Shown here: positions 1 through 60,120 of the stretch, piece by piece
Layout: each line of letters begins with the position of its first letter
How positions within the stretch are numbered: position 1 is the first letter of the stretch
DNA from: Gammaproteobacteria bacterium
GTDB lineage: Bacteria; Pseudomonadota; Gammaproteobacteria; UBA1113
Assembly (NCBI GenBank): GCA_021773295.1
Contig: JAJFKI010000007.1
Span: 5,046 to 69,045 of the forward strand
DNA: 64,000 nt
Direction of reading: 5' to 3'
The notes under the pieces: generated by a model
The model's input: only the letters and a program-made list of their open reading frames with translations
What the model was told of the DNA's origin: nothing
Databases searched by the model: none
Made by a program: the position numbers and the translations under genes

Positions 1-12
1 CGATGGGTATAT
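1..12. repeat. Terminal fragment (cgatgggtatat) of the MITE-like palindromic element; body lies upstream of the window
   Basis: Identical to the right terminus ...tacgatgggtatat of the full copies at 35230-35406 and 41265-41442. Confidence 0.35.
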
Positions 13-77
13 AATCCACACACTGTAGAGGCGCTTCTAACGCGCCCCTACAATTGAAAAATTCGTGACCGATTTTT

Positions 78-10973: not shown

Positions 10974-11008
10974 CTATACCAATCGTACCTCAAAATGCGA
11001 TGGGTACT
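10974..11008. repeat. Minimal/collapsed copy of the MITE-like element (two termini only)
   Basis: tataccaatcgtacctcaaaatgcga|tgggtac is the left terminus followed directly by the right terminus of the 175-bp element. Confidence 0.45.
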
Positions 11009-21296: not shown

Positions 21297-21400
21297 CGTC
21301 CCATCCCTGAGTCATTCATTATAGGCACCCACAGCGTATGGCGTTAACTCGCCAATTCGTGTGCACCACCTAAAGTTTAGTATTAATTACCTGAAATACT

Positions 21401-21560
21401 ATATACACATCGTACTCCGAAATGCAAGATTAATGCTGCTGCTTTTTGCCCTCATTGAGCGTTTGCAATTTGGCAATAGAATCACTAAAACGTCCAAAGG
21501 GAACAAAAGTTACCAGGCATAAATCTCGCATTTCGAAGTATTCAAAGCCAAACGATGCAA
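21401..21560. repeat. Degenerate, inverted copy of the MITE-like element
   Basis: atatacacatcgtactccgaaatgcaagattaatgctgctgctttttgccc...caatttggcaatagaat...ccaaagggaacaaaag...ctcgcatttcgaagta aligns with the reverse complement of copies at 35230 and 41265. Confidence 0.5.
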
Positions 21561-27000: not shown

Positions 27001-30000
27001 CACTGCATTTTCATCGGTTGCATAACCATCATCCACAGCATCTGGGGCATCATTAATGCCCGTGACATTAATGGTGACTGTCGCCGTATCGGTGCCAGTG
27101 TTGCCATCATCGATGGTATAAGTGAATGTATCATTGAGGGTTTGACCCGTATTGAGTGCTTGTATCGTCGCAGCACCGGTTGGATCATAACTATAGCTAC
27201 CATTGGCGTTGACATTAACTGTGGCACCACTCATGCTCGTTGCATCAAAGGCTGTGACTGTGATACCGTGACTTTCTGGATCCGAATCATTAACTAATAC
27301 ACCCGGCGCACCCGCATTAATCACGCTATCTTCATTCGTGGCATTAGCATCATCCACAGCATCTGGAGCATCATTAATACCTGTGAGTGTCACTGTGACT
27401 GTCGCCGTATCGGTGCCACCGTTACTATCATCAATCGTATAAGTGAATGTGTCATCAAGGGTTACGCCCGTGTCTAATGCTTGTATCGCCGCAGCACCCG
27501 TTGGATCATAACTGAAGCTACCATTGGCATTGACATTAACCGTGGCACCATTCACACTCGTTGCATTAAATGCTGTGACGGTTAAACCATGGCTCTCTGC
27601 ATCGGTGTCGTTGTTCAACACACCAGGCACACCAATATTCAACGCTGTATCTTCATCAGTTGCGTAACCATCATCTACTGCATCCGGAGCATCATTGACA
27701 CCCGTCACTGTGACGGTGACCGTCGCCGTATCGACGCCACCATTACCATCACTCACAGTATAATCGAACGTGTCATTAAGGGTAACACCCGTATTTAAGG
27801 CTTGAATGGTTGCGGCACTGGTAGGATCATAACTAAAGCTACCATCAGCATTGACATTAACTACGGCACCACTCGCACTCGCTGCATCAAACGCAATAAC
27901 TGTCAGTGTATCACTGGTATCAACGTCCGTATCACCATTTAAAACACCTAATGCTGCATTGACATTTAGCACAGCATCTTCGCTCGCATTGTAACCATCA
28001 TTATCAGCGACTGGCACATCATTTTCCCCGGTGATGGTCACCGTTACTGTAGCAACATCTGAGCTACCATTACCATCATCGACCGTATAACTAAAGCTGT
28101 CCACGGCTGTTTCACCGACCGCTAAGGATTCAAACTGACCATTAGGGTTATAAGTGACATCGGTCCCGTTATTGGTGACAAGACCTGTCGTACCCGCGAG
28201 GTTAAGACCGCTAATGGTTAGTGTGTCATTAAGATCTGGATCAAGATCATTAGCTAAGACGTCAACAAGCGTGCCAGCGTTATCTTCACTCACACTTGGT
28301 GTGTCTGCTACGGCTGTGACAGGATCATTAACACCTGAAATATGCATGGTAACCGTTTGCGTCGCTGTAGCACCATGCGCATCTTGTGCAGTATAAGTAA
28401 AAACATCCTGCGCCGTTTCTCCAACAGATAAATAATTAAAATTATTGCCTGGCTCATACTGAAAGTCACCACCACCAAGATCAGTGACTAATCCTATCGC
28501 ACCTGTTGTATTTAAACTTATAAAGGTTACATCCTCCCCTGAGTCAGTGTCAAAGTCGTTACCAATAGGAGAGGGATATATAGGAAAAACATCATCTTCT
28601 GTCAAAAAGTTATTGTCTGCAACTAAGACCATTGGATCATCAACACCAAGCACATTAATTGTCACATGAGCTGTGTCAGTAGCAATCCCATCGGTTATTG
28701 TATAATTGAAAGAATCATTAGTTGTTTGGCCCCCTGGTAAAATTTGTATGATAAAGACCGATGTTGGATCATACGTAAAACTGCCATCGCTTAGTAATGT
28801 AACATCAGCCCCTAGAAGCGAAGTAAACATACCAATTGGTGAAGTTACCGTCAATGTATCTAACGTATCAACATCTGTGTCATTGGCCAATATGCCACTT
28901 GCGGCATTAATATTAAAAATCGTATCTTCAGTAGCACCAACATAACTATCATTTACTGCAATAGGCGCATCATTAACCCCTTGAATGCTATAAGTGACCG
29001 TTGCTGTATCTGTGCCACCATTGCCATCACTGATTGTGTAAGTAAACACGTCTGTAACTACTTGGCCTTCAGCAAGTGCTTGGATATCTGGGTTTGTATT
29101 AGTGATGCTATATTGGTTTAATCCTGATACAGAATCAACGAATAAGTTACCGTAAGTGCCGCCTCCGAAGGAAGGACTTGAAGAAACACTACCAGCAACA
29201 TTTGTAACCGTCAGTGTATCTAATGTATCAATATCTGTGTCATTTACAAACAAGCTCGCACCAGTGTCTGCGAACTGAAATATACTTGGAAGATTCGCAT
29301 CTTCAATCAAAGGTATTGGCTGCGCATCATTGCCTGCCGTTGGTGCATCATTTGCACCTGTGACGGTAATATTTAAATTAGCTGTAGCTGTGGCGCCTTG
29401 ATCATCGGTGATTTGGTATGAGAATGAATCAATCACAGTTTGCGTCGCTGCTAATGCTTGAACATTTGCGGCGGCGTTGTCTAGTGTGTAGCTGTAAACA
29501 CCGTTGCTGGCAATGGTTACCGAGCCATAAGTGCCCATAACTACATTACCTACATTCGCCGGTAGACCAGCCACTGCTGTAACTGAAAATGATGAGCCAT
29601 TATCTACATCAGTATCATTAGTTGTAACTGTACCTCCTGCAACTAAAGTGCCATCTTCAGCCACATCATTTGAATCATCATTTGCTACGGGTGCGTCGTT
29701 GATACCCGTAATCGTCACCGTCACACTGGCTGTCGAGAACCCGCCATTACCATCACTCGCCGTATAACTAAAGGTATCGGTCGCGGTTTCTCCCACGGCT
29801 AAGCTTTCAAATTGTCCATTGGGATCGTAGGTGACATTCGTACCGTTATTAATAACACTGCCCAGTGTGCCCGCCGTATTCACAGCACTCACCGTCAACA
29901 CATCACTCGTATCCGGATCCGTATCATTGCTTAAGACATTAATCGCAACAGCAGGACCATCTTCATCGGCGGCGCCTACATCTGCAACGGCCGTTGGGCC

Positions 30001-31497
30001 ATCGTTTGAGCCCGTAATCGTCACCGTCACACTGGCTGTCGAGAACCCGCCATTACCATCACTCGCCGTATAACTGAAGGTATCGGTCGCGGTTTCCCCC
30101 ACGGCTAAGCTTTCAAATTGTCCATTGGGATCGTAGGTGACATTCGTACCGTTATTGATAACACTGCCCAATGTGCCCGCCGTATTCACAGCACTCACTG
30201 TTAAACTCGGGCTATCAATATCGCTATCGTTGGCTAGTACATCAATCACAACTGGCAAACCATCTTCATTAGCATTCCCAACATCATCAACTGTTGTAGG
30301 ATTATCATTTACGCCATTAACCGTCACCGTCACCGTTGCGGTATCCGTCAAACCTATTTCATCGGTGACAACGTATGTGAACATGTCTATTACAGATTGG
30401 CCAGCCGCTAGAGATTGAAAGCTAGCGGCTGGTGTGTATGTTACGACTCCATTGACAAGTTGTACTGTGCCTGTTGTTGTGCTGCCGTCAATGGAGAGTA
30501 CTGATAATGTTGTACCTGGGTTGGGATCGTTGTCATTTGCTGTTAATACATTTTCGCTTATTACGAGCGGTGTGTCTTCATTTGTTATTAGGTTGTCTGG
30601 ATTCGCAGTGGGAACTTGATTGAGTCTTGCGACGTTAATTGTAATTGGCGCTTCTGCTGTTGCACCACTTGGATCGGTGACCCTAGCTACCACTGTATAA
30701 GTTTGACCACCTAAATAATTAATTGCATCCGCGTTTGCAACTGAGAGAACACCTGTTGTCGAATTAATAGTGAATAAACTGAGCCCATTACCACTTACTA
30801 GTGAGTAAGTGATAGGATCGGCATCAGGATCAGAGGCTTGGACTGTGCCAATGGTGCCACCATCAGGAACAAACTGATTAACATTATATTGCAATGCACC
30901 TATGATGGGCGCTTGGTTGCTAGATTCCGAGACTGTGTTTGTAAAGTCGTCTGGATTATCATCAGACGGTGGTGGTGGCTCATTATCATCGCTAGGTGGT
31001 ATAGTTATTGTGACGGGGGGCTCTGCATTAGGGGTCGTTATTTGTGGTGGACTTTCCAAAGCTGTATTGAAATTTTGAAAATCATTACTTATCAATGAAA
31101 CCTCAGGCACATACTCAAGGGATGAAGATTGCTGTAGTTCCTCCATGGTGTAATAAGTTGTTGGGATCTTTAAATCAGTATCTGTTAAATCAAAGTTTTT
31201 AATTTTTGCGGGTTGAGCTAAACGACCTTGGAGACTTAAACCATCTATTATATGTATTTCTCGATGAACCGCAGAATCGATATACTCCATAGACATACCG
31301 ATTGATACACTCGTTAAACCGCCTGAGAAGAATGCGCCTGGTGTAAACGCAACGATGGATGGCGCAATAATAAAGCCAACCAGACCAACTGCTGTTATTA
31401 CAACATCAGGATGATCAAAAGCGGATTGGCCTACTCGACCATAATCTTGGACAACGACGGAACGTCTTCTTCGTCGTTTCTCATCTGGTAATGCCAT
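24043..31497 (-). CDS. Giant (2484 aa) type I-secreted RTX adhesin. ~14 tandem ~100-aa cadherin/VCBS-like repeats ending in (V/I)NDAP, FG-GAP-like repeats, RTX GGxGxD nonapeptides and a C-terminal secretion signal
   Basis: Repeats (..DAPDAVDDGYATDED..LTVTAF.ATS.NGATVNVN.NGSFSYDPTG...TDTATVTVTVTG(V/I)NDAP); GDVNGDG(Y/I)(N/A/S)D FG-GAP-like motifs; GQGGNDVYRAGAGDDTL RTX motifs; adjacent to ABC/HlyD genes. Confidence 0.85.
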   Translation of the reverse strand: MALPDEKRRRRRSVVVQDYGRVGQSAFDHPDVVITAVGLVGFIIAPSIVAFTPGAFFSGGLTSVSIGMSMEYIDSAVHREIHIIDGLSLQGRLAQPAKIKNFDLTDTDLKIPTTYYTMEELQQSSSLEYVPEVSLISNDFQNFNTALESPPQITTPNAEPPVTITIPPSDDNEPPPPSDDNPDDFTNTVSESSNQAPIIGALQYNVNQFVPDGGTIGTVQASDPDADPITYSLVSGNGLSLFTINSTTGVLSVANADAINYLGGQTYTVVARVTDPSGATAEAPITINVARLNQVPTANPDNLITNEDTPLVISENVLTANDNDPNPGTTLSVLSIDGSTTTGTVQLVNGVVTYTPAASFQSLAAGQSVIDMFTYVVTDEIGLTDTATVTVTVNGVNDNPTTVDDVGNANEDGLPVVIDVLANDSDIDSPSLTVSAVNTAGTLGSVINNGTNVTYDPNGQFESLAVGETATDTFSYTASDGNGGFSTASVTVTITGSNDGPTAVADVGAADEDGPAVAINVLSNDTDPDTSDVLTVSAVNTAGTLGSVINNGTNVTYDPNGQFESLAVGETATDTFSYTASDGNGGFSTASVTVTITGINDAPVANDDSNDVAEDGTLVAGGTVTTNDTDVDNGSSFSVTAVAGLPANVGNVVMGTYGSVTIASNGVYSYTLDNAAANVQALAATQTVIDSFSYQITDDQGATATANLNITVTGANDAPTAGNDAQPIPLIEDANLPSIFQFADTGASLFVNDTDIDTLDTLTVTNVAGSVSSSPSFGGGTYGNLFVDSVSGLNQYSITNTNPDIQALAEGQVVTDVFTYTISDGNGGTDTATVTYSIQGVNDAPIAVNDSYVGATEDTIFNINAASGILANDTDVDTLDTLTVTSPIGMFTSLLGADVTLLSDGSFTYDPTSVFIIQILPGGQTTNDSFNYTITDGIATDTAHVTINVLGVDDPMVLVADNNFLTEDDVFPIYPSPIGNDFDTDSGEDVTFISLNTTGAIGLVTDLGGGDFQYEPGNNFNYLSVGETAQDVFTYTAQDAHGATATQTVTMHISGVNDPVTAVADTPSVSEDNAGTLVDVLANDLDPDLNDTLTISGLNLAGTTGLVTNNGTDVTYNPNGQFESLAVGETAVDSFSYTVDDGNGSSDVATVTVTITGENDVPVADNDGYNASEDAVLNVNAALGVLNGDTDVDTSDTLTVIAFDAASASGAVVNVNADGSFSYDPTSAATIQALNTGVTLNDTFDYTVSDGNGGVDTATVTVTVTGVNDAPDAVDDGYATDEDTALNIGVPGVLNNDTDAESHGLTVTAFNATSVNGATVNVNANGSFSYDPTGAAAIQALDTGVTLDDTFTYTIDDSNGGTDTATVTVTLTGINDAPDAVDDANATNEDSVINAGAPGVLVNDSDPESHGITVTAFDATSMSGATVNVNANGSYSYDPTGAATIQALNTGQTLNDTFTYTIDDGNTGTDTATVTINVTGINDAPDAVDDGYATDENAVLNEGVPGVLVNDTDAESQGLTVTGFDAVSTSGAAVTVNGNGSFSYDPTGSATIQALTVGQTLNDTFTYTIDDSNGGTDTATVTVTVTGVNFVPDAMDDSDATNEDTPLNIAAPGVLVNDTDPDGHTLTVTVFDAASVNGATVNVNGDGSFTYDSTVAAALQALAVGQTLNDTFTYTVDDGNGGTDTATVTITVTGVNDAPTAVDDTFDTVSLPDPKSKDAGNVVTNDSDIDTGDTFSVTSFDATSVNGATVTVDASGNFTYDAFGTSFHNNLTGGQTAVDTFTYTITDSQGATDSATVSVTVVGFDELVSTTLTNAVGFTLNGIGSDDALGGAVGVGDYNGDGILDIIVNARGVENTISGFDDGEAYIVYGGATRVTGSINKTALGAGTQGFVITGDVAVGGTFANEIDFAVAGLGDVNGDGIGDMLVSYTSTIGTNVGRVIFGQSTILSAETHIDDLSGFTIEDNLNFGNIDDAQGLGDVNGDGIADFAMTTNNGGNHFVIFGSTSFGATLDVNTVNGTNGFEFEGTGETATQRIANLGDINGDGLDDIGFGTVDDGNTDGFAIVYGSTSAYTNPLDASLLNGTNGIFIDVVDAGADLTDVDFEAEGNIVGAGDVNGDGYNDIFVTTRTPNAENDIVGYVIYGGPSLTSMTPATFNSIAVGGMPSVGFAVIASAASELTVSGSGDVNGDGYSDLILVAPLGDEGLTNAGDLYVIYGSANITAPFTLNGVGSNIDGFNGYVINGDTANERFGRDDIAGANLEVTDFDGDGYDDIILGSPESPLGGGPGKGELFVIYGSNTNGIIDFEGTSGADALTGNVFDNHLVAMQGDDTLDGQGGNDVYRAGAGDDTLIYDAADTTKVDGGAGLDTLQLSGSGEVVDLTSINNLIHEGIEVVDITGTGNNTLTLGLSDVFDLSTEINTFGAVDTPNTLIVQGNTGDVLNIETGAGWQALGTINVGGEVYQHVQSLTLVGDIYYDTDITQNFV

Positions 31498-31640
31498 ACA
31501 ACCACCAACCTATAACTCAACAACACACTAGCAAAACCTGCCAAAAGAAGTTTTGCTCTCAGTATTTCATAAGTATAGTAAAGCTATGCGAGAATGCTTA
31601 TTAAGTTTTTTTTAATAAAGAAGAAATTTGTTAGTAACGC

Positions 31641-32942
31641 TTAAGGTTCTTTAAAGGCTCTGTCTGTCGCCTTGAAGAATGGATTAAGAATATAGTCTAA
31701 TACTGACTTTTTACTCGTAATAATATTGACGCTTGCCATCATCCCAGGAAGAATTGGGAGTTTCCTGCCTTTTTTGTTCTTCAGATAATTTTTATCTGTA
31801 GCAACTAATACTCGATAATAACTTTTCCCTTCTTCACTCTGCATAGTATCGGCACTGATTACAGCAACTTTTCCTTGCATACCACCAAAAATTGCAAAAT
31901 CATAAGCAGTGAACTTAACATAGGCTTCATCTCCAACTTTGATAAAGGCGATATCTTTTGGATCAACCTGCACCTCTACTGTCAATGTATCATCCAGCGG
32001 TACAAGTTCCATGATGTCTTCACCAGGAGGGATAACGCCGCCGATAGTGCTAATGTTAACATTGTTTACAATACCATTAACAGGTGAAACGATGGTCGTC
32101 CTGAATGCTCTATCTCTTGATGCTTCGATCCCTTTTTGCAAAATAATAAATTCTGACTGTAAATTTTTAAAGTTTTTATAGGCGTCTGCTTTAAACTTTT
32201 CTTTTTCTTCAATAATGCTGCCTTTAATTTCATTGACCTGTCGTTGCACGCGAATCAACTCTAAGTCTGACATAATCTGCTCTTTTACTAATGGCTTTAA
32301 TATATTTAATTCTTTGTTAGCCAAATCATAACTTCTTTGCATTGTCGATAAGCTTGTTTTTAAATCTGACATCCTTGCTTTAAAGATTTCAGTTTCACTT
32401 TTCACTAGCTCAGGGGCATTCTTTCTGACTTCCTGAGGGAAATCAATTGAAGTATCACCATTAATTTCAGCTCGGTAGCGAACAATTGTAGTGAGTAATG
32501 TCAAATATTTTATGTACTCTTCATTGTAATCCGCTTTAAAACGTGTATCGTCCAATTTTAACAAGGGTTGACCTCTTTTAACACGATCACCGTCTTTAAC
32601 AAATATTTCTTCAATAATCCCACCTTCTAAACTTTGAATAACTTTTACTTTTGATGAAGGTATTACTTTGCCTTGCCCAATAGTCGTTTCATCGATATAG
32701 CCAAGTCCTGCCCAAATAATCGCAATTAATAATAAGGCAATAACGGCATACAAAAAGAGGTTAGCTGCTCTTGGCGTAGTAATTAACAATGCTTGTTTGC
32801 TATCTGAGACAAAATCAATATCGTCAAGCTCTAAGCCATATAGTTTTTCCATATGCTTTAAATATTTCTGACGTGCTTCTAAATGTGATGAATGCACATC
32901 ATCAGACTTGTTCTCAACATCATTGTTTTTTTCGTCACTCAT
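31641..32942 (-). CDS. Type I secretion periplasmic adaptor (HlyD/LapC family)
   Basis: N-terminal TM anchor, long coiled-coil, C-terminal beta domain; start set at MSDEK (8-nt overlap with ABC transporter stop), the tracked ORF extends further. Confidence 0.85.
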   Translation of the reverse strand: MSDEKNNDVENKSDDVHSSHLEARQKYLKHMEKLYGLELDDIDFVSDSKQALLITTPRAANLFLYAVIALLLIAIIWAGLGYIDETTIGQGKVIPSSKVKVIQSLEGGIIEEIFVKDGDRVKRGQPLLKLDDTRFKADYNEEYIKYLTLLTTIVRYRAEINGDTSIDFPQEVRKNAPELVKSETEIFKARMSDLKTSLSTMQRSYDLANKELNILKPLVKEQIMSDLELIRVQRQVNEIKGSIIEEKEKFKADAYKNFKNLQSEFIILQKGIEASRDRAFRTTIVSPVNGIVNNVNISTIGGVIPPGEDIMELVPLDDTLTVEVQVDPKDIAFIKVGDEAYVKFTAYDFAIFGGMQGKVAVISADTMQSEEGKSYYRVLVATDKNYLKNKKGRKLPILPGMMASVNIITSKKSVLDYILNPFFKATDRAFKEP

Positions 32943-35091
32943 CTTTTTCACCTGCTGTGTTGTCCCCCAAACGCTCAAGAATCTTATCTTTACTCCCTTG
33001 CGCAAGTACCGTCCCCTTGTCAATCACAATCAATTTATCTAATATATTCAATATTGACATACGATGTGCTGTCAGTATTAATGTTTTGTCTACTATCATT
33101 TTTTGTAAATTGGTAATCACTCGCTTCTCAGTTTTAAAATCCATTGCGCTTGTGGGTTCATCAAATAGAAAAACGGGTGGGTTACCTAAATAGGCGCGTG
33201 CTAATGCAATACATTGTCGCTGCCCACCTGACATACTGGCACCACGTTCATCGATAAGCATGCGATAACCTTCATGATGTTCATTTGCAAATTGATCAAC
33301 TGCAGCAAATTCCGCAACTTTTATCACAGCACTATCTTCTACCCATGGTGCTCGCAAGGCAATGTTGTCTCTCAAAGTACCATAAAATAATGTGAAATCT
33401 TGTAATACACTGCCTATGTTTCGTCGTAAGTCCACAGGGTCAATTTGTGCTATGTCAATGTTATCAATCTTGATATTACCATCTTGTGGTTTATATAAAC
33501 CAAGAATCAAACGTTGAATCGTCGTTTTACCAGAACCTGTCCCCCCAATAATACCCATCTTATCGCCTGCTTCAATTTTGAAGGAGACATTATTTAGCAC
33601 AGCATAATCACTGGTTGGGTAAGCAAAGGTAACATTTTCAAATTCTACTGAACCTTTCAATTTGGTATAGCTAGTATACTTTTTCCCCATAGGACGTTCG
33701 TGAGGAAGCTCCATTATCTTATTTAAACCTTTAAGTGCAATTCTTGATTGTTGTATTCGAATTAAAATATTCGTGATTTGTGCTAATGGCGCTAATGCTC
33801 TACCCGCAAGAATGGTACAAGCGATTAACCCACCTACGGTTAATTGCCCCTGCATAATAAGATATACACCTAATATCACCACAGTCACCGTCACAACTTG
33901 CTGGATGAATGTGGCAAAGCTCATGGCTATTACTGAGAAGAACCTTGAACGTTGTGATGCACGGTAAGTAATACCAATATATTTTTCCCAACGACGCAGC
34001 ATAGTACCTTCTGCTACCATGCTTTTTAAAGTTTCCAAACCATTGATTGACTCGATCAAGACTGCATGCTTTTGGTTAGAACCAATGTAAGCCTTTTCTA
34101 TTGCCCTTCGCATCGGAATTTCTAATAAAATGCCCGCAAGGATAACCAAAGGCACAGCAATCAGCGGTACTATAGCCAGGACACCACCAATCATGTAAAT
34201 AATATATATAAATAGCAATACAAATGGAAAGTCAATAAAGCAGGTGAGTGTTGCTGATGTGAAAAAATCTCTTAGTACTTCAAACTCTCGTAAATTATTA
34301 GCAAACGCACCTGAGGAACTTGGCTTAGAACTTAGATTAATCGACAGCATCTGATTAAACAGCGTACTTGCAAGCAATACATCTGTTTTTTTACCGCTGA
34401 TGTCGATAAAGTGCCCTCGCAAAACTTTCATGACAAAGTCAAACAAGAATATAATTCCAACACCTGACGCTAATACCCAAAGAGTTTCAACCGTACTATT
34501 TGGGATTACTTTATCATAAACAATCATAATAAAAATTGGTGTAGCCAAAGCAAATGCATTAATCAAAAATGCTGACATCATCACCCTAACAAAAATAGAT
34601 TTATAACGGAACATTGTTCCCCAAAACCATGACTTTTCTTTTTGCACTTCAAATTCATCGGCACGCTTTTCAAAATCAACTTGTTTTTGACAAAAGATAG
34701 CATAGCCACTGTATTGATCAGCAATAGTTTCCAGGCGTATTCGTTTTACCGAGACATCTGTTTCAGGGAAAATGACTTCCGCCGTGCCATCATCAAAATA
34801 TTCTGTTATTAAGCAAGCTCGATCATCCTTAAGCACTAGCACTGCAGGCAATACTAAGCCAGGAATTCTATCAATAGGCCGCTTAACAACTTTCGCATAA
34901 TAACCAATGCGTCCAGCTGCCCTAATAAATAACTGTGGTGTTAACTTGCGCCCAACCAATGGCAGACCCGCCGTTAATGATTCCATCGAGTGTGGTTGTT
35001 GATCAAACTTTGTAAGAATGACCAAACAACCCAATAATGGATCATCAAAATGTAATTCCTGAAACCCCAAGTTTTCACTAAATTGAGTCAT
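32935..35091 (-). CDS. Type I secretion ABC transporter (HlyB/LapB family) with N-terminal C39-like domain
   Basis: 718 aa; ~130-aa N-terminal C39-like domain, 6-TM domain, Walker A GGTGSGKTT, signature LSGGQRQ. Confidence 0.88.
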   Translation of the reverse strand: MTQFSENLGFQELHFDDPLLGCLVILTKFDQQPHSMESLTAGLPLVGRKLTPQLFIRAAGRIGYYAKVVKRPIDRIPGLVLPAVLVLKDDRACLITEYFDDGTAEVIFPETDVSVKRIRLETIADQYSGYAIFCQKQVDFEKRADEFEVQKEKSWFWGTMFRYKSIFVRVMMSAFLINAFALATPIFIMIVYDKVIPNSTVETLWVLASGVGIIFLFDFVMKVLRGHFIDISGKKTDVLLASTLFNQMLSINLSSKPSSSGAFANNLREFEVLRDFFTSATLTCFIDFPFVLLFIYIIYMIGGVLAIVPLIAVPLVILAGILLEIPMRRAIEKAYIGSNQKHAVLIESINGLETLKSMVAEGTMLRRWEKYIGITYRASQRSRFFSVIAMSFATFIQQVVTVTVVILGVYLIMQGQLTVGGLIACTILAGRALAPLAQITNILIRIQQSRIALKGLNKIMELPHERPMGKKYTSYTKLKGSVEFENVTFAYPTSDYAVLNNVSFKIEAGDKMGIIGGTGSGKTTIQRLILGLYKPQDGNIKIDNIDIAQIDPVDLRRNIGSVLQDFTLFYGTLRDNIALRAPWVEDSAVIKVAEFAAVDQFANEHHEGYRMLIDERGASMSGGQRQCIALARAYLGNPPVFLFDEPTSAMDFKTEKRVITNLQKMIVDKTLILTAHRMSILNILDKLIVIDKGTVLAQGSKDKILERLGDNTAGEKDE

Positions 35092-35229: not shown

Positions 35230-35406
35230 CCGCATATACCCATCGTTCTTCAAAATGCGAGATTTAGGCGATTTGATTTTTGTTCCCGTGCAGGCTTTGA
35301 AATGCGGGTAATAGCCATTCTATTGCCAAATTTCAAAGCCTGTACGGGGACAAAAAGCAATAGCATTAATCTCACATTTTGGAGTACGATGGGTATATAC
35401 CCATCG
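35230..35406. repeat. MITE-like ~175-bp palindromic element, copy 1
   Basis: ~28-bp terminal inverted repeats (atatacccatcgttcttcaaaatgcgag / ctcacattttggagtacgatgggtatat) flanking an internal long imperfect palindrome; terminates in the 20-bp perfect palindrome cgatgggtatatacccatcg. Confidence 0.6.
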
Positions 35407-37432
35407 CACTCCAGCCAGTGTCTGGTTTAAAACGTGCGCCCATGCTAGTTTCCAGTCGTGAAAAGATTTCTTTGCGTTGATCATCTGCTAATTGTTGTAC
35501 ATAGTGAATGGGGCCACCTCTGAAGGGAGCAAAGCCAGTGCCGAAAATAATCCCGGCATCTAATAAATCAGCATCAGAGACTATACCTTCACGTAAGCAG
35601 GCAACGGCTTCATTCGCTAAACGTACGACTAAGCGTAATGCAAGATCATGAGGTGCTTTATAGTTGTTTGGTAGCTTTGGCTTTTGTGCGATGCCATCAT
35701 TATAACGATATAAACCTTGCCCTGTCTTTTTACCTAGGTGCCCTTCTGAAATAAGTTGATGTAATATTTCTGTAGCTTTCTCATCTTCACCTAGATGAAT
35801 ATTTTCTAGTGTCAATAAAACAACATCTAAACCTATCGTGTCTAACAATTCCATGGGCCCTATGGGCATACCAAAATTTTCAGCTGCCCTATCAATTGCA
35901 GCCATAGGCACACCTTCATTTGCTATTAAGAATGCCTCAAAAAGGTAAGCAGCTAACACCCTATTTACCAAAAATCCTGGTGCACTTTTTACGGGTAGTG
36001 GTAAGCGTCTCAATGTGCGTACAAAAGCAATCGCATGCTGTTTTTCTGTATCAAAGGTTCTAGGATTATAAACAACTTCGACCAGTGGCATTTTGTGAAC
36101 GGGATTAAAAAAGTGGATTCCTACTAATCGCTCAGGTTGTTGCATCATTGCAGAAATTTCTTTTAGCATTATACTTGACGTATTTGTCGCTAAAAGTGCT
36201 GTGGGTTTTGCTTTTTCTTCAATGTCTTTAAATAAAGCTTGCTTTAACGCAACATCTTCACTGACTGCCTCAATGATAACATCGGCTTTGCGAATACCAT
36301 CACCCGCAACATCGGCTTGTAAGCGATCCATAGCATCACGAATTTTGAGTGGATCTGTTAATTTTCTAGTAAATAATTTATGTGCTCGCTTAACTGCTGG
36401 TGCTATATATTGGGTATGTCGATCTTGTAATGTCACACGATAACCTTTCAGTGCACACCAGGTAGCAATATCACCGCCCATAACGCCAGCACCTATTACA
36501 TGCACATGCTGAGCTTCAAAGACAATGAGATCATCAAGGTTTTTTAAGCGTTCCTGTAAAAAGTAAACTCGTGATAAATTTATGGCAGTATCTGTCATTA
36601 ATAATTTACCGACTGAATTTGCTTCGGCAATGTAACTTTTCTCACTGTAAATGCCATGCGTTAACCAATTTTCCACAATGGCATAAGGTGCAGGATAATG
36701 TTCAATCTTAACGTCTTTAGCGTTTAATTTTTTACGGATAAGAGAAGCAACAACCGGACGAATGAACGACCAATTTAAAGTATTTTGCCAAAAACTTGCT
36801 TTTTGTTTGGCGGGTTTGTTTTGTAAATAATAAAGTGCTGAGTTATTTAATTGTCGCTCTGGTACAGCATCATCAATCACCCCCATAAGTTTTGCTTTTT
36901 TTGCAGAGATTGGACGACCACTTAACATCAACGTAATTGCAGCAGAAGGCCCGATCAATCTCGGTAAGCGTATCGTCCCCCCCCAACCAGGATGAATGCC
37001 TAACATGACTTCTGGCAGACCAATGCGAACTTGATGCTGCAATGAAGCAATACGATAATCGCATGCTAGGGCAAGTTCTAAGCCACCTCCCAAACAAAAT
37101 CCATTAATGAGTGCAACGGTTGGGAAACTAAAGGCTTCTAACTTATCAAATATTTGTTGTACTTGACGAATTAAGTCTACTGCTTTATTTACATCATTAA
37201 ATTGAGAAAATTGTTCAACATCAGCACCTGAAATAAACCCACTTTCTTTGCAAGAGTAAATGACCATGCCCTGTGGTGCCTGCGCGGGTAATTTGTCCAC
37301 GATATCATTGAGCTCTTCTAAAACAGGATAATTTAAGGAATTTGTTGCGCTATCTGCTCGATCAATACCAAGCCACAAAAATCCATCTGCCGTTTGCTTT
37401 ATTTTCCAGTGTTGATATTCTCTACTTGGCAT
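35372..37432 (-). CDS. fadB: Fatty-acid oxidation complex alpha subunit (enoyl-CoA hydratase / 3-hydroxyacyl-CoA dehydrogenase)
   Basis: 686 aa; N-terminal crotonase fold, central NAD-binding GAGVMGGDIA; the last ~10 codons of the tracked ORF run into the repeat element so the true stop context is uncertain. Confidence 0.85.
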   Translation of the reverse strand: MPSREYQHWKIKQTADGFLWLGIDRADSATNSLNYPVLEELNDIVDKLPAQAPQGMVIYSCKESGFISGADVEQFSQFNDVNKAVDLIRQVQQIFDKLEAFSFPTVALINGFCLGGGLELALACDYRIASLQHQVRIGLPEVMLGIHPGWGGTIRLPRLIGPSAAITLMLSGRPISAKKAKLMGVIDDAVPERQLNNSALYYLQNKPAKQKASFWQNTLNWSFIRPVVASLIRKKLNAKDVKIEHYPAPYAIVENWLTHGIYSEKSYIAEANSVGKLLMTDTAINLSRVYFLQERLKNLDDLIVFEAQHVHVIGAGVMGGDIATWCALKGYRVTLQDRHTQYIAPAVKRAHKLFTRKLTDPLKIRDAMDRLQADVAGDGIRKADVIIEAVSEDVALKQALFKDIEEKAKPTALLATNTSSIMLKEISAMMQQPERLVGIHFFNPVHKMPLVEVVYNPRTFDTEKQHAIAFVRTLRRLPLPVKSAPGFLVNRVLAAYLFEAFLIANEGVPMAAIDRAAENFGMPIGPMELLDTIGLDVVLLTLENIHLGEDEKATEILHQLISEGHLGKKTGQGLYRYNDGIAQKPKLPNNYKAPHDLALRLVVRLANEAVACLREGIVSDADLLDAGIIFGTGFAPFRGGPIHYVQQLADDQRKEIFSRLETSMGARFKPDTGWSAMGIYPSYSKM

Positions 37433-41185: not shown

Positions 41186-41264
41186 TCTTCCTTATATCAA
41201 TCGCTGCACACTTTATAATAACGGCTTCTCTCTCCTGCGCAAGCAAAAAAAGTATTCCTACTAA

Positions 41265-41442
41265 GTATATACCCATTACAGATGAAAATGCGAAATTAGG
41301 GCGATTTGATTTTTGTTCCCTTTGGACGTTAGAAATGCAGGTAATAGCCGGTCTATTGGCAAATTTCTAACGTTCAAAGGGGGCAAAAAGCAATAGCATT
41401 CATTTTGCATTTTCATCTGTGATGGGTATAGACCCATTACAG
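41265..41442. repeat. MITE-like ~175-bp palindromic element, copy 2
   Basis: Same termini (tatatacccattacagatgaaaatgcgaaatt / ...cattttcatctgtgatgggtataga) and internal architecture as copy 1; internal arms carry co-varying substitutions. Confidence 0.6.
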
Positions 41443-41539
41443 ATTCTGGCCTCATTTTGTCTGTTAATATTTTCCTTATTAAGCTATCTCTAAGGATACT
41501 TTTTGCGCATATTAAGTATACCCATCATACTTTTGATTC

Positions 41540-48886: not shown

Positions 48887-48926
48887 TATTTCTCCCTTTA
48901 AAATTTATCTCTACACCCATCGTACT

Positions 48927-50084
48927 TCAAGCTAACGCTTTCGTGATTTGCTCAAGTGCCATATTAATTTTCTCTTCTCTCAAAGCATAACAAATGCGAA
49001 TGATGTTATGGCCCTTATTTTTATCTAAATGGAATGACCGACCAGGTACGCTAGCAACTTTAGCGTTATCTAAGAGATAGCTTGCGACAGCTTCATCATC
49101 CCCAAGCCCCAGTTCTGATATATCAGCCATCAAATAGTAAGCCCCTTGTGGCAAGGGCACTTTAAATCCAAGATCATTTAAGGTTTGCACGACATGATCG
49201 CGTTTGGTTAAAAATTCTTGTGCTAAGTTCGTGTAATACTCCTCATCAACATTTAAAGCCGTGATGCAAGCATACTGCAATGGCGTTGGCGGGCAGACAT
49301 AAATTAAATCCTGTAATAATGACATTTTTTCAATGATCTCTTGCGGCCCCGAGACATAGCCTAAACGCCAACCAGTCATATTAAAAGTTTTTGAAAAACC
49401 AGAAATGGTGAGGGTACGTTCGAAGTGATCTTCAAGGCTAGCAATAGAAACATGTTCGTAACCGGGATAAGTAATATATTCATAAATTTCATCGGTGATC
49501 ATGTACAGGTCGTTTTCTCTGGCGATATTCCCCAATGCCAATAATTCCTGTTGGCTATAGACTTTACCTGTAGGATTATTGGGGGTACAAATAACCATGC
49601 CACGCGTAAGTGGCGTAACAGCTGCCCGCACTTCATCCATATCAATACTTAGGGTTTGTAAATTAATGGCAACTGATTTAACAGTGATGCCATTTAATTC
49701 TAATATATTTTTGTGGTAACCGTAGAATGGCTCAAATAGAATGACTTCATCACCAGCGTTAAATAAAGCATTAATAGCACAAACATAAGCACCGGTTGAA
49801 CCATGGCTCACCATGATTTGCGTATCTGGCTCGGCGTTAATCCGATTAAATTGTTTAATTTTTTCCGCGAGTGCGAAGCGCAAACTGCGAATGCCGTTAT
49901 AAGGCGAGTAAATACTTTTATCGCGCTCTATGGCGTCGTAAGCTGCTTGTTTGATAGGAGCAATCACCGGAATATCACAGACGCCCTGCCCTAAATTAAT
50001 CCCACCGATAGCAGCACATTTAACACTGGCTGAACGAATGCCGGACTGCTTTAAATCTTTACTCTTATCGCTTAATCTTGACAT
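48927..50084 (-). CDS. Class I/II PLP-dependent aminotransferase
   Basis: SGFSKTFNMTGWRLGY lysine motif; N-terminus ..LKQSGIR..; start placed at MSRLSD (Met 12 of the tracked ORF). Confidence 0.8.
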   Translation of the reverse strand: MSRLSDKSKDLKQSGIRSASVKCAAIGGINLGQGVCDIPVIAPIKQAAYDAIERDKSIYSPYNGIRSLRFALAEKIKQFNRINAEPDTQIMVSHGSTGAYVCAINALFNAGDEVILFEPFYGYHKNILELNGITVKSVAINLQTLSIDMDEVRAAVTPLTRGMVICTPNNPTGKVYSQQELLALGNIARENDLYMITDEIYEYITYPGYEHVSIASLEDHFERTLTISGFSKTFNMTGWRLGYVSGPQEIIEKMSLLQDLIYVCPPTPLQYACITALNVDEEYYTNLAQEFLTKRDHVVQTLNDLGFKVPLPQGAYYLMADISELGLGDDEAVASYLLDNAKVASVPGRSFHLDKNKGHNIIRICYALREEKINMALEQITKALA

Positions 50085-50171
50085 AGTGAATCTTTTCCAA
50101 ATATTGCCGTATTGCAATGAATCAGGATGGATTATATCCTTACTGATTATACTTTGCTAGGAAAGAATACT

Positions 50172-53087: not shown

Positions 53088-53957
53088 TTAATAACTTAAC
53101 AAATAATTAAATATTGTTTCACCCCAGAAAAAAGTAACAAATCCAGCAATTGACAGCATTGGAGAAAACGGTATTAGCATTTTCTTATCTGAAAGTCCTC
53201 TGAAATGCAGCAAAGTAACACTCACAATACCTAACATAATGAATGCAATTGCAATCGTTAAGGGTAAAAGCTCATAACCTTGCCACGCGCTTATCATTGC
53301 TAACAGTTTTGCATCTCCCAGCCCTAACCCTTCTGCTTTACGTACTATTTGATATAAATAACCTAATAGCCAAAACAGCAAATAGCCAATCGCCGCGCCG
53401 ATTATCGCATCCTTAGGAGAAACAAATACATCATAAGTGCTTATGATAAGACCCAGCCATAAAATAGGTAGCACAATACTATCTGGTACGAGTTGGTGCT
53501 CTAAGTCTATGCAGGTAACGATTAGCAGGCTAAAGCTAAATAAAAAGATAAGCAACGCCTTTAAATTCAAGCCATAAACAATCACAAGCCCGATTAACAA
53601 AACAACAGAGAGTAACTCCACTACGGGTACTCTGATACTCAAATTAGCGCGGCATTTGGAACACTTCCCGAGTAAAAACAGATAACTTAACAGCGGAATT
53701 TTCTCGGTCCATCGGTAGAAATAATGACAGTTCGGACAGGATGAAATGGATCGAGGAACAGGGATTTGTTCGCGTTGCGTTGCATCGGATGGGTCTTCAA
53801 TCTCTAAAAAAGCAAGGCACTCACTTTTCATGTCTGCGTACAGATTGGTGGGGATAAAATTAATGATAACGTTAATGCACCGTCCGATCACTAATCCGAG
53901 TATGACGAGTACAATTAACCCTAAGGTGGGCAAGTGAAATACGTTTAACGACTCCAT
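53088..53957 (-). CDS. Prepilin peptidase, full-length PilD type (A24A, Zn-finger plus N-methyltransferase domain)
   Basis: 289 aa; CPNC...CSKC tetracysteine motif, catalytic Asp regions incl. GLGDAKLL, 7-8 TM segments. Confidence 0.85.
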   Translation of the reverse strand: MESLNVFHLPTLGLIVLVILGLVIGRCINVIINFIPTNLYADMKSECLAFLEIEDPSDATQREQIPVPRSISSCPNCHYFYRWTEKIPLLSYLFLLGKCSKCRANLSIRVPVVELLSVVLLIGLVIVYGLNLKALLIFLFSFSLLIVTCIDLEHQLVPDSIVLPILWLGLIISTYDVFVSPKDAIIGAAIGYLLFWLLGYLYQIVRKAEGLGLGDAKLLAMISAWQGYELLPLTIAIAFIMLGIVSVTLLHFRGLSDKKMLIPFSPMLSIAGFVTFFWGETIFNYLLSY

Positions 53958-54118
53958 TTTTCTCTAGTACCTCTTCCATGTTGTTGAATCATTTTAATGA
54001 ATGCTTAAGCATAAGTACACCTTAGTGTCTATTTGTTTCAATTTAAAAATCATTAAGAGCCTTATTAATAGGTATATGGCCCTCACTACGCTATATTTTA
54101 AGTATGGGTGGTTAGGAT

Positions 54119-54577
54119 GTGGGGCAGATTATGCCGAACTCGATAGTATCTAAATTTTCGTGGCAAAAGGTACGTGGCGTCGTAGCCATCGAAGCCGCGT
54201 TCGTGCTCCCTGTGCTAATCTTACTCATTATTGCGACCATAGAGATTACCTATATCTTACACGCCAGGCACGCCATGCTTGATGCAGCCAGAGAAGGCGC
54301 GAGGTATGCGGCCATTGAGACTGTCACCGCTGCCGAGGTAAAAAATAAAGTTATTTCTTATCTTACCACTATGAAAATTAAGGCAAGCTCAGCGTGTCCC
54401 AATAACAGCTGTATTACTATCAGCCCATCTGATCCGAGTACGGTTAAGCGCGGAGAGTCTATAACAGTCAGTCTTACCATTCCGGCGGCGAAACTGTCTA
54501 TCGTTCCCAATAATGGAATATACACTTGGGGAAGTATAAAGCTAAATGTTAGCGCCTCAATGGCAAAAGAAAAATGA
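54119..54577 (+). CDS. TadE/TadF-like pseudopilin
   Basis: N-terminal TadE domain (RGVVAIEAAFVLPVLILLIIATIEI). Confidence 0.7.
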   Translation: MGQIMPNSIVSKFSWQKVRGVVAIEAAFVLPVLILLIIATIEITYILHARHAMLDAAREGARYAAIETVTAAEVKNKVISYLTTMKIKASSACPNNSCITISPSDPSTVKRGESITVSLTIPAAKLSIVPNNGIYTWGSIKLNVSASMAKEK

Positions 54578-54586
54578 GGTATTCAG

Positions 54587-55987: not shown

Positions 55988-56074
55988 GGCGTGAAATGAC
56001 GCACAGCTATTGTATTGCCATTATAATTTCCTTAAACTAAACAATTAAATAGAGCAAATCAGAGGGACAAGGGA

Positions 56075-58223: not shown

Positions 58224-58226
58224 AAG

Positions 58227-60111: not shown

Positions 60112-60120
60112 GAGTTAACC

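What the first reader, a model, noticed from the sequence alone, without database searches (positions are those of the whole stretch)
41265..41442. Co-varying substitutions keep the internal hairpin arms of the repeat element self-complementary
In copy 1 both internal arms carry ...gtgcaggctttgaaat... and its complement atttcaaagcctgtac. In copy 2 both arms instead carry ...ctttggacgttagaaat... and atttctaacgttcaaagg. The two arms within a copy match each other better than the same arm across copies. The stem-loop is therefore maintained by compensatory change or gene conversion. That implies selection on a DNA cruciform or RNA hairpin rather than on primary sequence.
Basis: seen in the sequence. 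Interest (0 to 1): 0.6.

Follow-up and report, generated by a model that had tools for sequence, protein, structure and literature searches.

The report
Foldback mobile repeat with co-varying arms
The two hairpin arms of this 163-base repeat do change together between copies, but it is a small mobile DNA repeat of a familiar kind, and such linked changes are already known from similar repeats, so it is only mildly new.

Summary
Copy B (41268-41430) and copy A (35235-35397) align without gaps. Of 71 predicted base pairs, 13 differ on both sides, and all 13 still pair in both copies.

The 13 changes fall in two blocks, an outer and an inner module. These are discrete module types, not many separate substitutions. 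The same types recur in other copies and reassort:
- Copy C has outer type 1 with inner type 2.
- A copy elsewhere in the genome has type 1 on one arm and type 2 on the other.

The element is a non-coding foldback repeat ending TA|TACCCATCG...CGATGGGTA|TA, with at least five copies or remnants in this window. A homologous family exists in Legionella adelaidensis. It keeps the same conserved blocks but has a quite different inner stem that still pairs with itself. A Bdellovibrionota-like metagenome organism has a family sharing only the termini.

- In that metagenome family, variants found in two or more copies almost always keep pairing (18 of 20). Variants in one copy do so half the time (13 of 26).
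- Old copies have lost the fold.
- In all 13 intact copies the mismatches are G·T on one strand.

I read this as a hairpin needed for the element's spread, not for the host. This is a new member of a known kind, closest in behaviour to REPINs. No transposase was found.

The parts
41268..41430 (+). Copy B of the foldback repeat (the finding). It has termini TATACCCAT.../...ATGGGTATA, outer module type 2 (TACAGATG) and inner module type 2 (TTTGGACGTTAG).
   Evidence: I1, I2; model score 158 bits on +, 97 on -.
41306..41336 (+). Inner left arm of copy B. Its partner is 41363-41393, with a 26-nt loop between them.
   Evidence: I2: 31 nt, 87% complementary.
41363..41393 (+). Inner right arm of copy B.
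   Evidence: I2.
41431..41445 (+). Extra 15-nt copy of the left terminus (GACCCATTACAGATT), of B's own module type. It forms a small terminal palindrome with B's right end.
   Evidence: D1 (19-nt direct repeat, 95%).
35235..35397 (+). It has outer module type 1 (CGTTCTTC / GGAGTACG) and inner module type 1 (GTGCAGGCTTTG). Its right end supplies the last codons and the stop codon of the fadB-like gene on the minus strand.
   Evidence: (D14, I4, I9).
35398..35412 (+). Extra 15-nt left terminus after copy A (TACCCATCGCACTCC), cut at the same point as the one after copy B.
21400..21545 (-). Copy C, in reverse orientation. It lacks about 12 nt at its left end and has a 13-nt central deletion. It carries outer module type 1 with inner module type 2, and its arms have partly decayed (-48 kcal/mol).
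   Evidence: (I1, I2, I5, I6).
10975..11006 (+). Mini remnant D. The two termini are fused into a short hairpin (TACCAATCG...CGATGGGTA) and the interior is deleted.
   Evidence: (D18). A comparable 49-nt mini copy exists in L. adelaidensis (L121).
1..13 (+). Right terminus (CGATGGGTATATA) of a further copy that is cut off by the start of the window.
41517..41533 (+). Solo left terminus (TATACCCATCATACTTT), preceded by TA, 87 nt downstream of copy B.
48912..48928 (+). Solo left terminus (TACACCCATCGTACTTC), overlapping the 3' end of the aminotransferase gene 48927-50117(-).

Best explanation
The finding is one copy of a non-coding, roughly 163-bp foldback mobile repeat (a MITE in the broad sense). 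Almost its whole length is one long imperfect hairpin. It ends in invariant termini, TACCCATCG...CGATGGGTA, and each end is flanked by TA.

The arms co-vary because only lineages in which one particular strand can still fold into the long hairpin, and whose two ends still match, go on to make new copies. Changes that reach several copies are therefore pair-preserving. They define subfamilies with different module types. Recombination between copies then reshuffles those modules.

Once inserted, a copy is not maintained and decays arm by arm.

Shown here:
- the anatomy of the element;
- covariation in three families;
- the contrast between variants shared by several copies and variants private to one copy;
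- the one-strand G·T polarity of the mismatches;
- decayed and chimeric copies.

Inferred, not shown:
- that the folded single strand (DNA, or less likely RNA) is the form on which spread depends;
- that TA is a duplicated target site;
- that an unidentified transposase is responsible.
For: **Dispersed multi-copy element with no coding capacity.**
- At least seven copies or remnants lie in 64 kb. The element itself encodes no consistent protein.
- Five small ORFs read across further copies on other contigs of the same genome.
- The syntenic relative L100 lacks the element. Its NYN-to-acyl-CoA-dehydrogenase spacer is 153 nt, against 354 nt here.

**Homologous family in Legionella adelaidensis.**
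- The family has 24 places in 9 records.
- It keeps the termini, the blocks CGATTYGATTTTTG and CAAAAAGCRAYAG, the loop, and even the same left/right asymmetry.
- Its inner stem is unrelated in sequence yet pairs with itself.

**Family M, from a Bdellovibrionota-like metagenome organism.**
- It shares only the termini.
- It has the same two-subfamily, both-arms block pattern.
- Further single-pair compensations lie outside that block: 33/155, 46/143, 48/141, 77/112, and 88/101 with a G·U intermediate.

**Selection acts on spread, not on residence.**
- In family M, with the chimera removed, variants present in two or more copies preserve pairing 18 times and break it twice. Singleton variants preserve it 13 times and break it 13 times (Fisher p = 0.005).
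- Old copies have lost the fold.

**A single strand is involved.**
- The + strand of all 13 intact copies folds better than the - strand, with RNA and with DNA parameters. There are 4-8 G·T pairs on + against 0-2 on -.
- In family M the commonest state at every stem pair is either Watson-Crick or G·U (6 pairs G·U, none A·C).
- In the two window copies there are 10 G·T pairs against 1 A·C mismatch.
- GC skew places the window's + strand on the lagging strand. From established replication-strand asymmetry, I infer that mutation bias there would produce the opposite polarity.

**TA flanks.** Tandem copies share exactly one TA (GGGTA-TA-TACCC), in 11 junctions on 10 metagenome contigs, after copy A, and as inferred from peptide P0121.

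**Precedent.** Conserved ends, a variable spacer that still pairs, compensatory changes and defunct singlets are described for REPINs (PMC3116915). Compensatory changes are also reported for bcr1 (PMC3184786).
Against: - Only two intact copies of this genome's own family could be read as DNA. The rest of the genome was not retrievable. The shared-versus-private test therefore rests on a different family in a different organism.
- Shared variants are not independent events, and relatedness alone inflates the shuffle controls, as the counting tool itself warns.
- The 12-sequence alignment of the Legionella-type copies was fitted to the structure.
- For family M, orientation was chosen by the covariance model, which may itself prefer G·U over A·C. 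Its polarity therefore counts as a single observation.
- Even private one-sided changes lean towards G·U (9 against 2). Some bias or some maintenance in place is therefore possible.
- No transposase, no empty-site comparison and no polymorphic insertion was found. Mobility and TA duplication are inferred.
- For the outer module, next to the termini, the need for both ends to fit one transposase would produce the same covariation without any hairpin.
Confidence: 0.55

Rival explanations
1. No selection on structure. Each subfamily was born as a near-perfect palindrome, for example by fold-back copying of one arm. Alternatively the arms are repeatedly homogenised by template switching or gene conversion within the hairpin. 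Covariation between copies is then only descent from different masters, plus recombination.
For: - The A/B differences are two contiguous blocks, not scattered substitutions.
- The module types are discrete and recur.
- A replacement tract spanning the centre changes both inner arms at once, as in M107c and copy C.
- Peptide P0122 implies a copy in which both long arms are of the left-arm type, as if one arm had been copied onto the other.
- Template-switch correction of quasi-palindromes is an established mutational process (my own knowledge).
Against: - Homogenisation should erase mismatches without regard to type. Yet the same G·T pairs and the same asymmetric internal loops persist in all copies of a family, and even between this genome and L. 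adelaidensis.
- The polarity is one-sided in 13 of 13 intact copies.
- Private changes are half disruptive, so correction in place is not efficient.
- Isolated pair changes with a G·U intermediate (88/101) look like stepwise compensation.
Confidence: 0.2
2. The hairpin is kept for the host. Once transcribed, it acts as an RNA element in neighbouring messages, for example as a 3' end protector, an RNase III site or a regulator.
For: - The strand-specific G·U polarity is what RNA-level selection predicts.
- Copies sit between genes, or at gene 3' ends.
- Related repeats such as ERIC and Correia affect mRNA (my own knowledge), and Coxiella MITEs give rise to small RNAs (PMC5896051).
Against: - The better-folding strand is antisense to co-directional flanking genes in about 10 of 13 copies, and orientation is mixed (with annotations).
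- No promoter-like or terminator-like site lies in or next to copy A. The one promoter-like match in the region scanned around copy B lies about 85 nt outside the element, and its count is no more than shuffled sequence gives.
- Many copies have decayed, been truncated, or been reduced to solo termini.
- No Rfam family matches. The only weak hits are generic hairpins.
Confidence: 0.1
3. The covariation reflects protein recognition of double-stranded ends. Both terminal repeats must fit the same transposase, and different subfamilies are served by different transposase variants. No folded form is involved.
For: - The largest co-varying blocks lie directly inside the invariant 11-12-nt termini: window pairs 15-21 and family M columns 13-27.
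- The same termini occur with unrelated interiors in three kinds of host.
- B's outer type resembles an outer type seen in the metagenome: ACCCATYACAGATGAAAATGCG against ACCCATCGCAAATGAAAATTACGG.
Against: - It does not explain the inner module, 55-70 nt from each end, which is the subject of the finding.
- It does not explain compensations deep in the stem (46/143, 48/141, 88/101).
- It does not explain the G·T polarity.
- Chimeric copies with discordant outer arms exist, though these may be immobile.
Confidence: 0.15

Closest known systems
REPINs (REP doublets forming hairpins, moved by RAYT tyrosine transposases; Bertels and Rainey 2011, PMC3116915)
   Same: - Highly conserved ends in inverted orientation.
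- A spacer whose length and ability to pair are conserved while its sequence is not.
- Frequent compensatory changes.
- Tandem clusters.
- Solo remnants interpreted as defunct copies.
- An asymmetric extra piece at one end.
- A hairpin proposed to form in single-stranded DNA or mRNA.
   Different: - There is no GTAG or CGTC tag, and no short GC-rich REP unit at the ends.
- The termini are AT-rich (TATACCCATCG) and flanked by TA on both sides.
- The element is about twice as long.
- No RAYT gene was seen, although only 64 kb of the genome could be examined.
TA-flanked bacterial MITEs such as Correia elements of Neisseria and ERIC of enterobacteria
   Same: - Size of 100-190 bp, non-coding and mostly intergenic.
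- Long imperfect palindrome.
- TA at both ends.
- Length variants produced by internal deletion.
- Overlaps with gene ends.
- No transposase inside.

Compensatory change in such repeats has been reported, for bcr1 in PMC3184786. For ERIC this is my recollection of Wilson and Sharp 2006, which I did not check.
   Different: - There is no sequence similarity to these families.
- The host group differs (Legionellales).
- The interior is replaced wholesale between families while 11-12 terminal bases stay identical across phyla.
Coxiella burnetii QMITE1 and QMITE2 (PMC5896051)
   Same: - The host belongs to the same order.
- Dozens of copies per genome.
- The 3' ends of genes are extended into the element.
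- QMITE2 is a target for an IS110-family element (IS1111). Likewise a repeat with the same termini in the metagenome organism carries an IS110-family insertion at a fixed site.
   Different: - QMITE1 is 300-400 bp with 2-3-nt direct repeats of variable sequence.
- QMITE2 has 7-11-nt direct repeats and a GTAG REP.
- Neither has the TATACCCATCG termini.
Integron attC sites
   Same: An imperfect palindrome in which the arms co-vary, structure rather than sequence is conserved, and one strand is the active folded form.
   Different: - There are no RYYYAAC/GTTRRRY core sites.
- There is no cassette array and no integrase nearby.
- The copies are scattered among housekeeping genes.

Membership tests
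MITE (broad sense) | Short (under about 300 bp), non-coding and present in many dispersed copies | tested here: met
   - The element is 163 bp.
- Seven copies or remnants lie in 64 kb.
- Further copies lie on at least five other contigs of the genome.
- Stop codons interrupt the reading frames, and which frames are open differs between copies A and B.
MITE (broad sense) | Terminal inverted repeats | tested here: met
   - The outer arms are 47-49 nt and 80-81% complementary.
- The termini TATACCCATCG / CGATGGGTATA are shared with the L. adelaidensis and metagenome families.
MITE (broad sense) | Target-site duplication flanking each copy | tested here: inconclusive
   - TA flanks nearly every copy on both sides.
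- Tandem copies share one TA.
- Without an empty site, TA cannot be told apart from part of the repeat itself.
MITE (broad sense) | A related autonomous insertion sequence with the same ends, or presence/absence differences between close relatives | tested here: inconclusive
   - No transposase lies in the window.
- None is bounded by these termini in the fetched loci.
- The only close strain pair was 99.98% identical, with no insertion differences.
- The distant syntenic relative lacks the copies.
REPIN / REP-RAYT system | Two inverted conserved ends with a variable spacer that keeps the hairpin through compensatory change | tested here: met
   compared with PMC3116915.
REPIN / REP-RAYT system | GTAG- or CGTC-tagged REP unit at the ends | tested here: not met
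   The ends read TATACCCATCGTNCTYC or ...TTACAGATG. The tetranucleotide tags are described in PMC3733652, of which I saw only the title and abstract.
REPIN / REP-RAYT system | A cognate RAYT (Y1 transposase) gene in the genome | not testable with these tools
   Only the 64-kb window of this genome is readable, and none of the 30 main ORFs scanned against Pfam matched a transposase family.
IS630 / Tc1-mariner-derived MITE | TA target duplication, and ends matching an IS630-family element | not tested
   The TA flanks are compatible with this. No IS630-family element was available for comparison of ends.
Correia element | The 26-bp Correia terminal repeat in a Neisseria host | tested here: not met
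   The termini differ and the host is Legionellales-like. The Correia sequence is from my own knowledge.
Intrinsic terminator | A GC-rich stem followed by a T tract | tested here: not met
   No terminator-like site was found on either strand around A or B. The stems are followed by ACCCAT... or GCGGTT...
Integron attC | R''/R' core sites and a position in a cassette array next to intI | tested here: not met
   - The sequence lacks these sites.
- The neighbours are fatty-acid oxidation, NYN-domain, short-chain dehydrogenase and pilin genes.
Any Rfam RNA family | A score at or above the family's gathering threshold | tested here: not met
   - There are no matches in the window at gathering score.
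- At the permissive threshold only plant microRNA-precursor models match, at 34 bits or less against thresholds of 83 or more. These are generic hairpin matches.

The most novel reading that the evidence does not exclude
The termini TA|TACCCATCG define a superfamily of foldback elements that crosses phyla (Legionellales, a Bdellovibrionota-like organism, and a third host with 35% G+C). Their interiors are free to change as long as one specific strand still folds. They would be moved as a folded single strand by a transposase not yet linked to them. This would be a REPIN-like replicator system separate from the RAYT/GTAG one. The extra 15-nt terminus after copies A and B would be part of the asymmetric moving unit.
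Probability: 0.2. Interest if true: 0.6.

Novelty: new member of a known kind. Interest (0 to 1): 0.35.

Why it matters
If this reading holds, the family is a clean natural example of selection acting on a selfish repeat's ability to spread, not on the host. Pairing is preserved in variants that multiplied and ignored in copies that merely sit in place.

The identical 11-12-base termini, found in distant bacteria around unrelated interiors, give a concrete handle for finding the responsible transposase. They also allow a test of whether it acts on a folded single strand.

For genome annotation, the element accounts for several things:
- odd C-terminal tails, such as the last 12 residues of the fadB-like protein here;
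- spurious small ORFs;
- the borders of an inserted adhesin and secretion island.

It does not reveal a new kind of regulatory RNA.

Tried and rejected
**Searches that failed or gave nothing**
1. The single genome-collection scan was wasted on a gapped pattern with only 19 fixed bases. It returned 99 chance loci, none related.
2. The source genome could not be fetched by exact-protein look-up. Two window proteins, its exact database match P0001 and peptide P0121 were all tried. Its other copies are therefore known only as five translated peptides.
3. The first metagenome scan, with 25 fixed interior bases, found nothing. Two viral scans found nothing.
4. The plasmid collection has no relative of the metagenome family.
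5. A literature search for the terminal sequence returned only primers.
6. The strain pair L122/L123 showed no insertion differences, so no empty site was obtained.
7. I did not fetch the roughly 12 remaining L. adelaidensis copies, because it would have cost many calls without changing the conclusion.

**Ideas considered and dropped**
- **Intrinsic terminator:** there is no T tract.
- **Known RNA family:** there is no Rfam match.
- **attC site:** there are no core sites and no cassette array.
- **IS200/IS605-type element:** the termini are symmetric with TA on both sides, which does not fit.
- **Bridge-RNA-like guide element:** here the stems vary and the loops are conserved, which is the reverse of that pattern.
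- **Replication-strand mutation bias as the cause of the G·T polarity:** GC skew predicts the opposite polarity.
- **Segmental duplication of A and B:** similarity ends at the element borders (D14).

Full report
**1. What is at the coordinates**

The interval 41265-41442 holds one copy, B, of a repeat whose core runs from 41268 to 41430. Almost the whole element is an imperfect palindrome.
- The outer arms are 49 nt and 80% complementary.
- The inner arms are 31 nt (41306-41336 and 41363-41393) and 87% complementary, around a 26-nt loop.

A second full copy, A, lies at 35235-35397. It is 76% identical to B over 171 nt.

Both copies fold far better than shuffled sequence: -101.3 and -92.5 kcal/mol, with z = -14.9 and -12.0.

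**2.

A and B align without gaps. On the 71 pairs of the minimum-energy folds:
- 13 pairs differ on both sides, and all 13 remain paired in both copies;
- 10 pairs differ on one side, and five of these are exchanges between Watson-Crick and G·U.

Read directly from the sequence, the variable inner block matches between arms 15/16 in A and 16/17 in B. The same arm compared across copies matches only 8/16.

The double changes are not scattered. About two events separate A from B, not thirteen.

**3. More copies in the window, and what they show**

- Copy C (21400-21545, reverse orientation) is truncated and has a central deletion. It combines the outer module of A with the inner module of B. Its arms have partly decayed, to -48 kcal/mol.
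- A mini remnant at 10975-11006 keeps only the two termini.
- The window begins with the right terminus of another copy.
- Solo 15-nt left termini lie at 41517 and 48912.
- After the right end of both A and B, separated by a single TA, comes a further 15 nt of left terminus. It is of the copy's own module type and is cut at the same position in both. I could not explain this.

**4. The host and the limits of the data**

The flanking fadB-like protein has an identical database entry from one 84.5-kb NCBI contig. Its next relatives are 59-60% identical, and the named hits are nearly all Legionella or Legionellales. The genome's other contigs could not be fetched.

A syntenic relative from a Logan assembly (L100) lacks the element. 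Its spacer between the NYN-domain and acyl-CoA dehydrogenase genes is 153 nt, against 354 nt here.

I translated the element and searched the protein collection. This found five small ORFs on five other contigs that read across further copies, all from the same source and most likely the same genome.
- Two peptides span an inner and an outer module of one arm and pair the same types as in the window: P0123 is type 2 with type 2, and P0124 is type 1 with type 1. P0125 reads outer type 2 followed by the start of inner type 2.
- P0121 reads through two copies in tandem.
- P0122 implies a copy whose left outer module is type 1 and whose right outer module is type 2. Its two long arms are both of the left-arm kind.

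These are inferences from peptides, not from DNA.

**5. Relatives elsewhere**

- *Metagenome scan.* A scan with the 20-nt tandem junction CGATGGGTATATACCCATCG found ten contigs.
  - Two contigs (34-36% G+C) share about 30 nt of the outer arm with this family.
  - Seven of the remaining eight (47-49% G+C) carry elements of an unrelated-interior repeat, family M, of 182-185 nt with the same termini. Fourteen copies were aligned.
  - The host of family M has flagellar/type III export genes. Its FliI/YscN ATPase is closest to Bdellovibrionota MAGs, at 67-71% identity.
- *Legionella adelaidensis.* A blastn search of the plasmid collection hit L. adelaidensis NCTC12735, whose chromosome pieces are filed as plasmids: 24 places in 9 records. 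These copies are true homologues.
  - They share the termini, the blocks CGATTYGATTTTTG and CAAAAAGCRAYAG, the loop AATAGCC...CTATTG and the same left/right asymmetry.
  - Their inner stem has a different sequence that still pairs with itself.
  - There is a T:A to C:G exchange in a conserved helix.

**6. Covariation in the larger sets**

- *Six Legionella-type copies:* 21 of 66 consensus pairs are compensatory.
- *Twelve Legionella-type copies, aligned to a covariance model:* 37 of 66, with 78 G·U cells against 30 A·C. This alignment leans towards the structure.
- *Family M:* 73 pairs, 12 of them compensatory. 96.2% of cells are paired against 92.2% when shuffled, and the covariation score is 0.186 against 0.118, each exceeded by 0 of 500 shuffles. 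Slid controls give 31-44% paired.

Family M again splits into two subfamilies that differ by a block in both arms (columns 13-27 with 160-174). It also has single-pair compensations outside that block, one with a G·U intermediate. It contains chimeras too. M105a has discordant outer arms. M107c has one subfamily's centre inside the other's ends.

**7. Where selection acts**

In family M, without the chimera:

| Variant class | Preserve pairing | Break pairing |
|---|---|---|
| Present in two or more copies | 18 | 2 |
| Singletons | 13 | 13 |

Fisher's exact test gives p = 0.005.

The folds of the twelve Legionella-type copies rank as follows:

| Copies | Folding energy (kcal/mol) |
|---|---|
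| A and B | -99, -91 |
| Four best-preserved L. adelaidensis copies | -66 to -77 |
| ad116 | -56 |
| Copy C (truncated) | -48 |
| ad117, ad118, ad119 | -30 to -41 |
| ad113b (truncated) | -35.5 |

The hairpin is therefore a property of lineages that went on to multiply. It is not something kept at each site.

**8. A single strand**

In all 13 intact copies from the three families, one strand folds better than its complement. The difference is 16-28 kcal/mol with RNA parameters in the six Legionella-type copies, and 5-13 kcal/mol with DNA parameters in all 13. That strand has 4-8 G·T pairs against 0-2 on the other. In family M the commonest state at every stem pair is Watson-Crick or G·U, never A·C.

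The window's GC skew puts the + strand on the lagging strand. From established replication-strand asymmetry, I infer that mutation bias there would give the opposite polarity. A cruciform in double-stranded DNA would extrude both strands and does not predict this. A folded single strand, DNA or RNA, does.

**9. Against a host RNA role**

- No promoter-like or terminator-like site lies in or next to copy A. The one promoter-like match in the region scanned around copy B lies about 85 nt outside the element, and its count is no more than shuffled sequence gives.
- There is no Rfam match.
- The better-folding strand is antisense to co-directional neighbours in about 10 of 13 copies (with annotations). 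This is suggestive only.

**10. TA and the missing transposase**

Nearly every copy has TA outside TACCC...GGGTA. Tandem copies share a single TA. This is what insertion into the TA beside an existing copy would give, as in IS630/Tc1-type elements. No empty site was available, however.

None of the 30 main window ORFs scanned against Pfam is a transposase. In the metagenome organism, an IS110-family element is inserted at a fixed point in a 110-nt repeat with the same termini, at two loci. That repeat is a target, not the mover, much as IS1111 targets QMITE2 in Coxiella (PMC5896051).

**11. Comparison with what is known**

The closest behaviour is that of REPINs. These have conserved inverted ends, a spacer conserved in length and pairing but not in sequence, common compensatory changes, tandem clusters, defunct singlets and an asymmetric intermediate (PMC3116915). 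Compensatory change has also been reported for bcr1 (PMC3184786).

The element fails the REP tag test, and its sequence matches no described family. I file it as a new member of a known kind. A survey reports conserved MITEs in 99.6% of Legionella genomes (PMC11602168), so this family may already be catalogued without having been characterised.

**12. Verdict**

Structure rather than sequence is conserved, but through subfamily turnover and recombination in a selfish repeat. The fold is in a single strand, and there is no sign of a host function.
- Interest is modest.

Noticed in passing
window 35372-35412 (minus-strand gene 35372-37432): The last 12 residues (SAMGIYPSYSKM) and the stop codon of the fadB-like protein are encoded by the right end of copy A plus the extra terminus. 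Homologues end soon after the conserved RFKPDxGW motif, with unrelated tails.
   Followed up: yes
window 35398-35412 and 41431-41445: Both full copies are followed, after one shared TA, by 15 nt of a further left terminus. It is of the copy's own module type and is cut at the same point in both. Simple truncation of a tandem neighbour does not explain the shared cut point.
   Followed up: partly
window 24043-35091: This stretch holds a 2484-residue cadherin/Big_9-repeat adhesin with its type I secretion genes (HlyD-like 31641-33023, ABC transporter 32935-35091). It sits between an MFS/beta-lactamase pair and fadB, which are adjacent in the syntenic relative L100. Repeat copies C and A lie near its two borders.
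   Followed up: partly
window 3627-7859: A 1410-residue glycine-rich ORF has 9-nt periodic GGN repeats, a locally raised G+C of 51%, and no Pfam match.
   Followed up: no
window 48912-48930: A solo repeat terminus overlaps the stop codon of the aminotransferase gene 48927-50117(-). This is a second gene whose 3' end lies in repeat-derived sequence.
   Followed up: partly
L103 2080-3660 and L105 1-48 (metagenome contigs): An IS110-family element (DEDD transposase, ORF 2168-3232) is inserted at the same point, GTGGAAG|CGGCC, of a 110-nt repeat that shares the TATACCCATCG termini. This occurs at two loci and recalls IS1111 inserting into QMITE2 of Coxiella. An IS66-family transposase lies next to it (L103 25-1455).
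   Followed up: partly
window copies A, B, C; L102, L104, L107, L109; L111, L116: The better-folding (G·T) strand of the repeat is antisense to co-directional flanking genes in about 10 of 13 copies across three hosts. This is a trend, not a significant result.
   Followed up: partly
P0122 (another contig, probably of the same genome): The peptide implies a copy whose two long arms are both of the left-arm type, as if one arm had been copied onto the other, while its outer modules are of different types.
   Followed up: partly
L121 398-452, L101 79-148, window 10975-11006: Mini versions of 32-70 nt keep only the termini and outer arms as a perfect or near-perfect small hairpin. They are probably internal-deletion products.
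   Followed up: partly
window 53088-63415: A Tad/Flp-type pilus assembly locus: prepilin peptidase, TadG-like protein, RcpC, secretin, CpaD, ATPase and TadB/C-like protein.
   Followed up: no
window 41247-41260 and 41491-41504: A 14-nt inverted repeat (86% complementary) brackets copy B together with about 60 nt of its downstream flank. It is probably a chance match.
   Followed up: no
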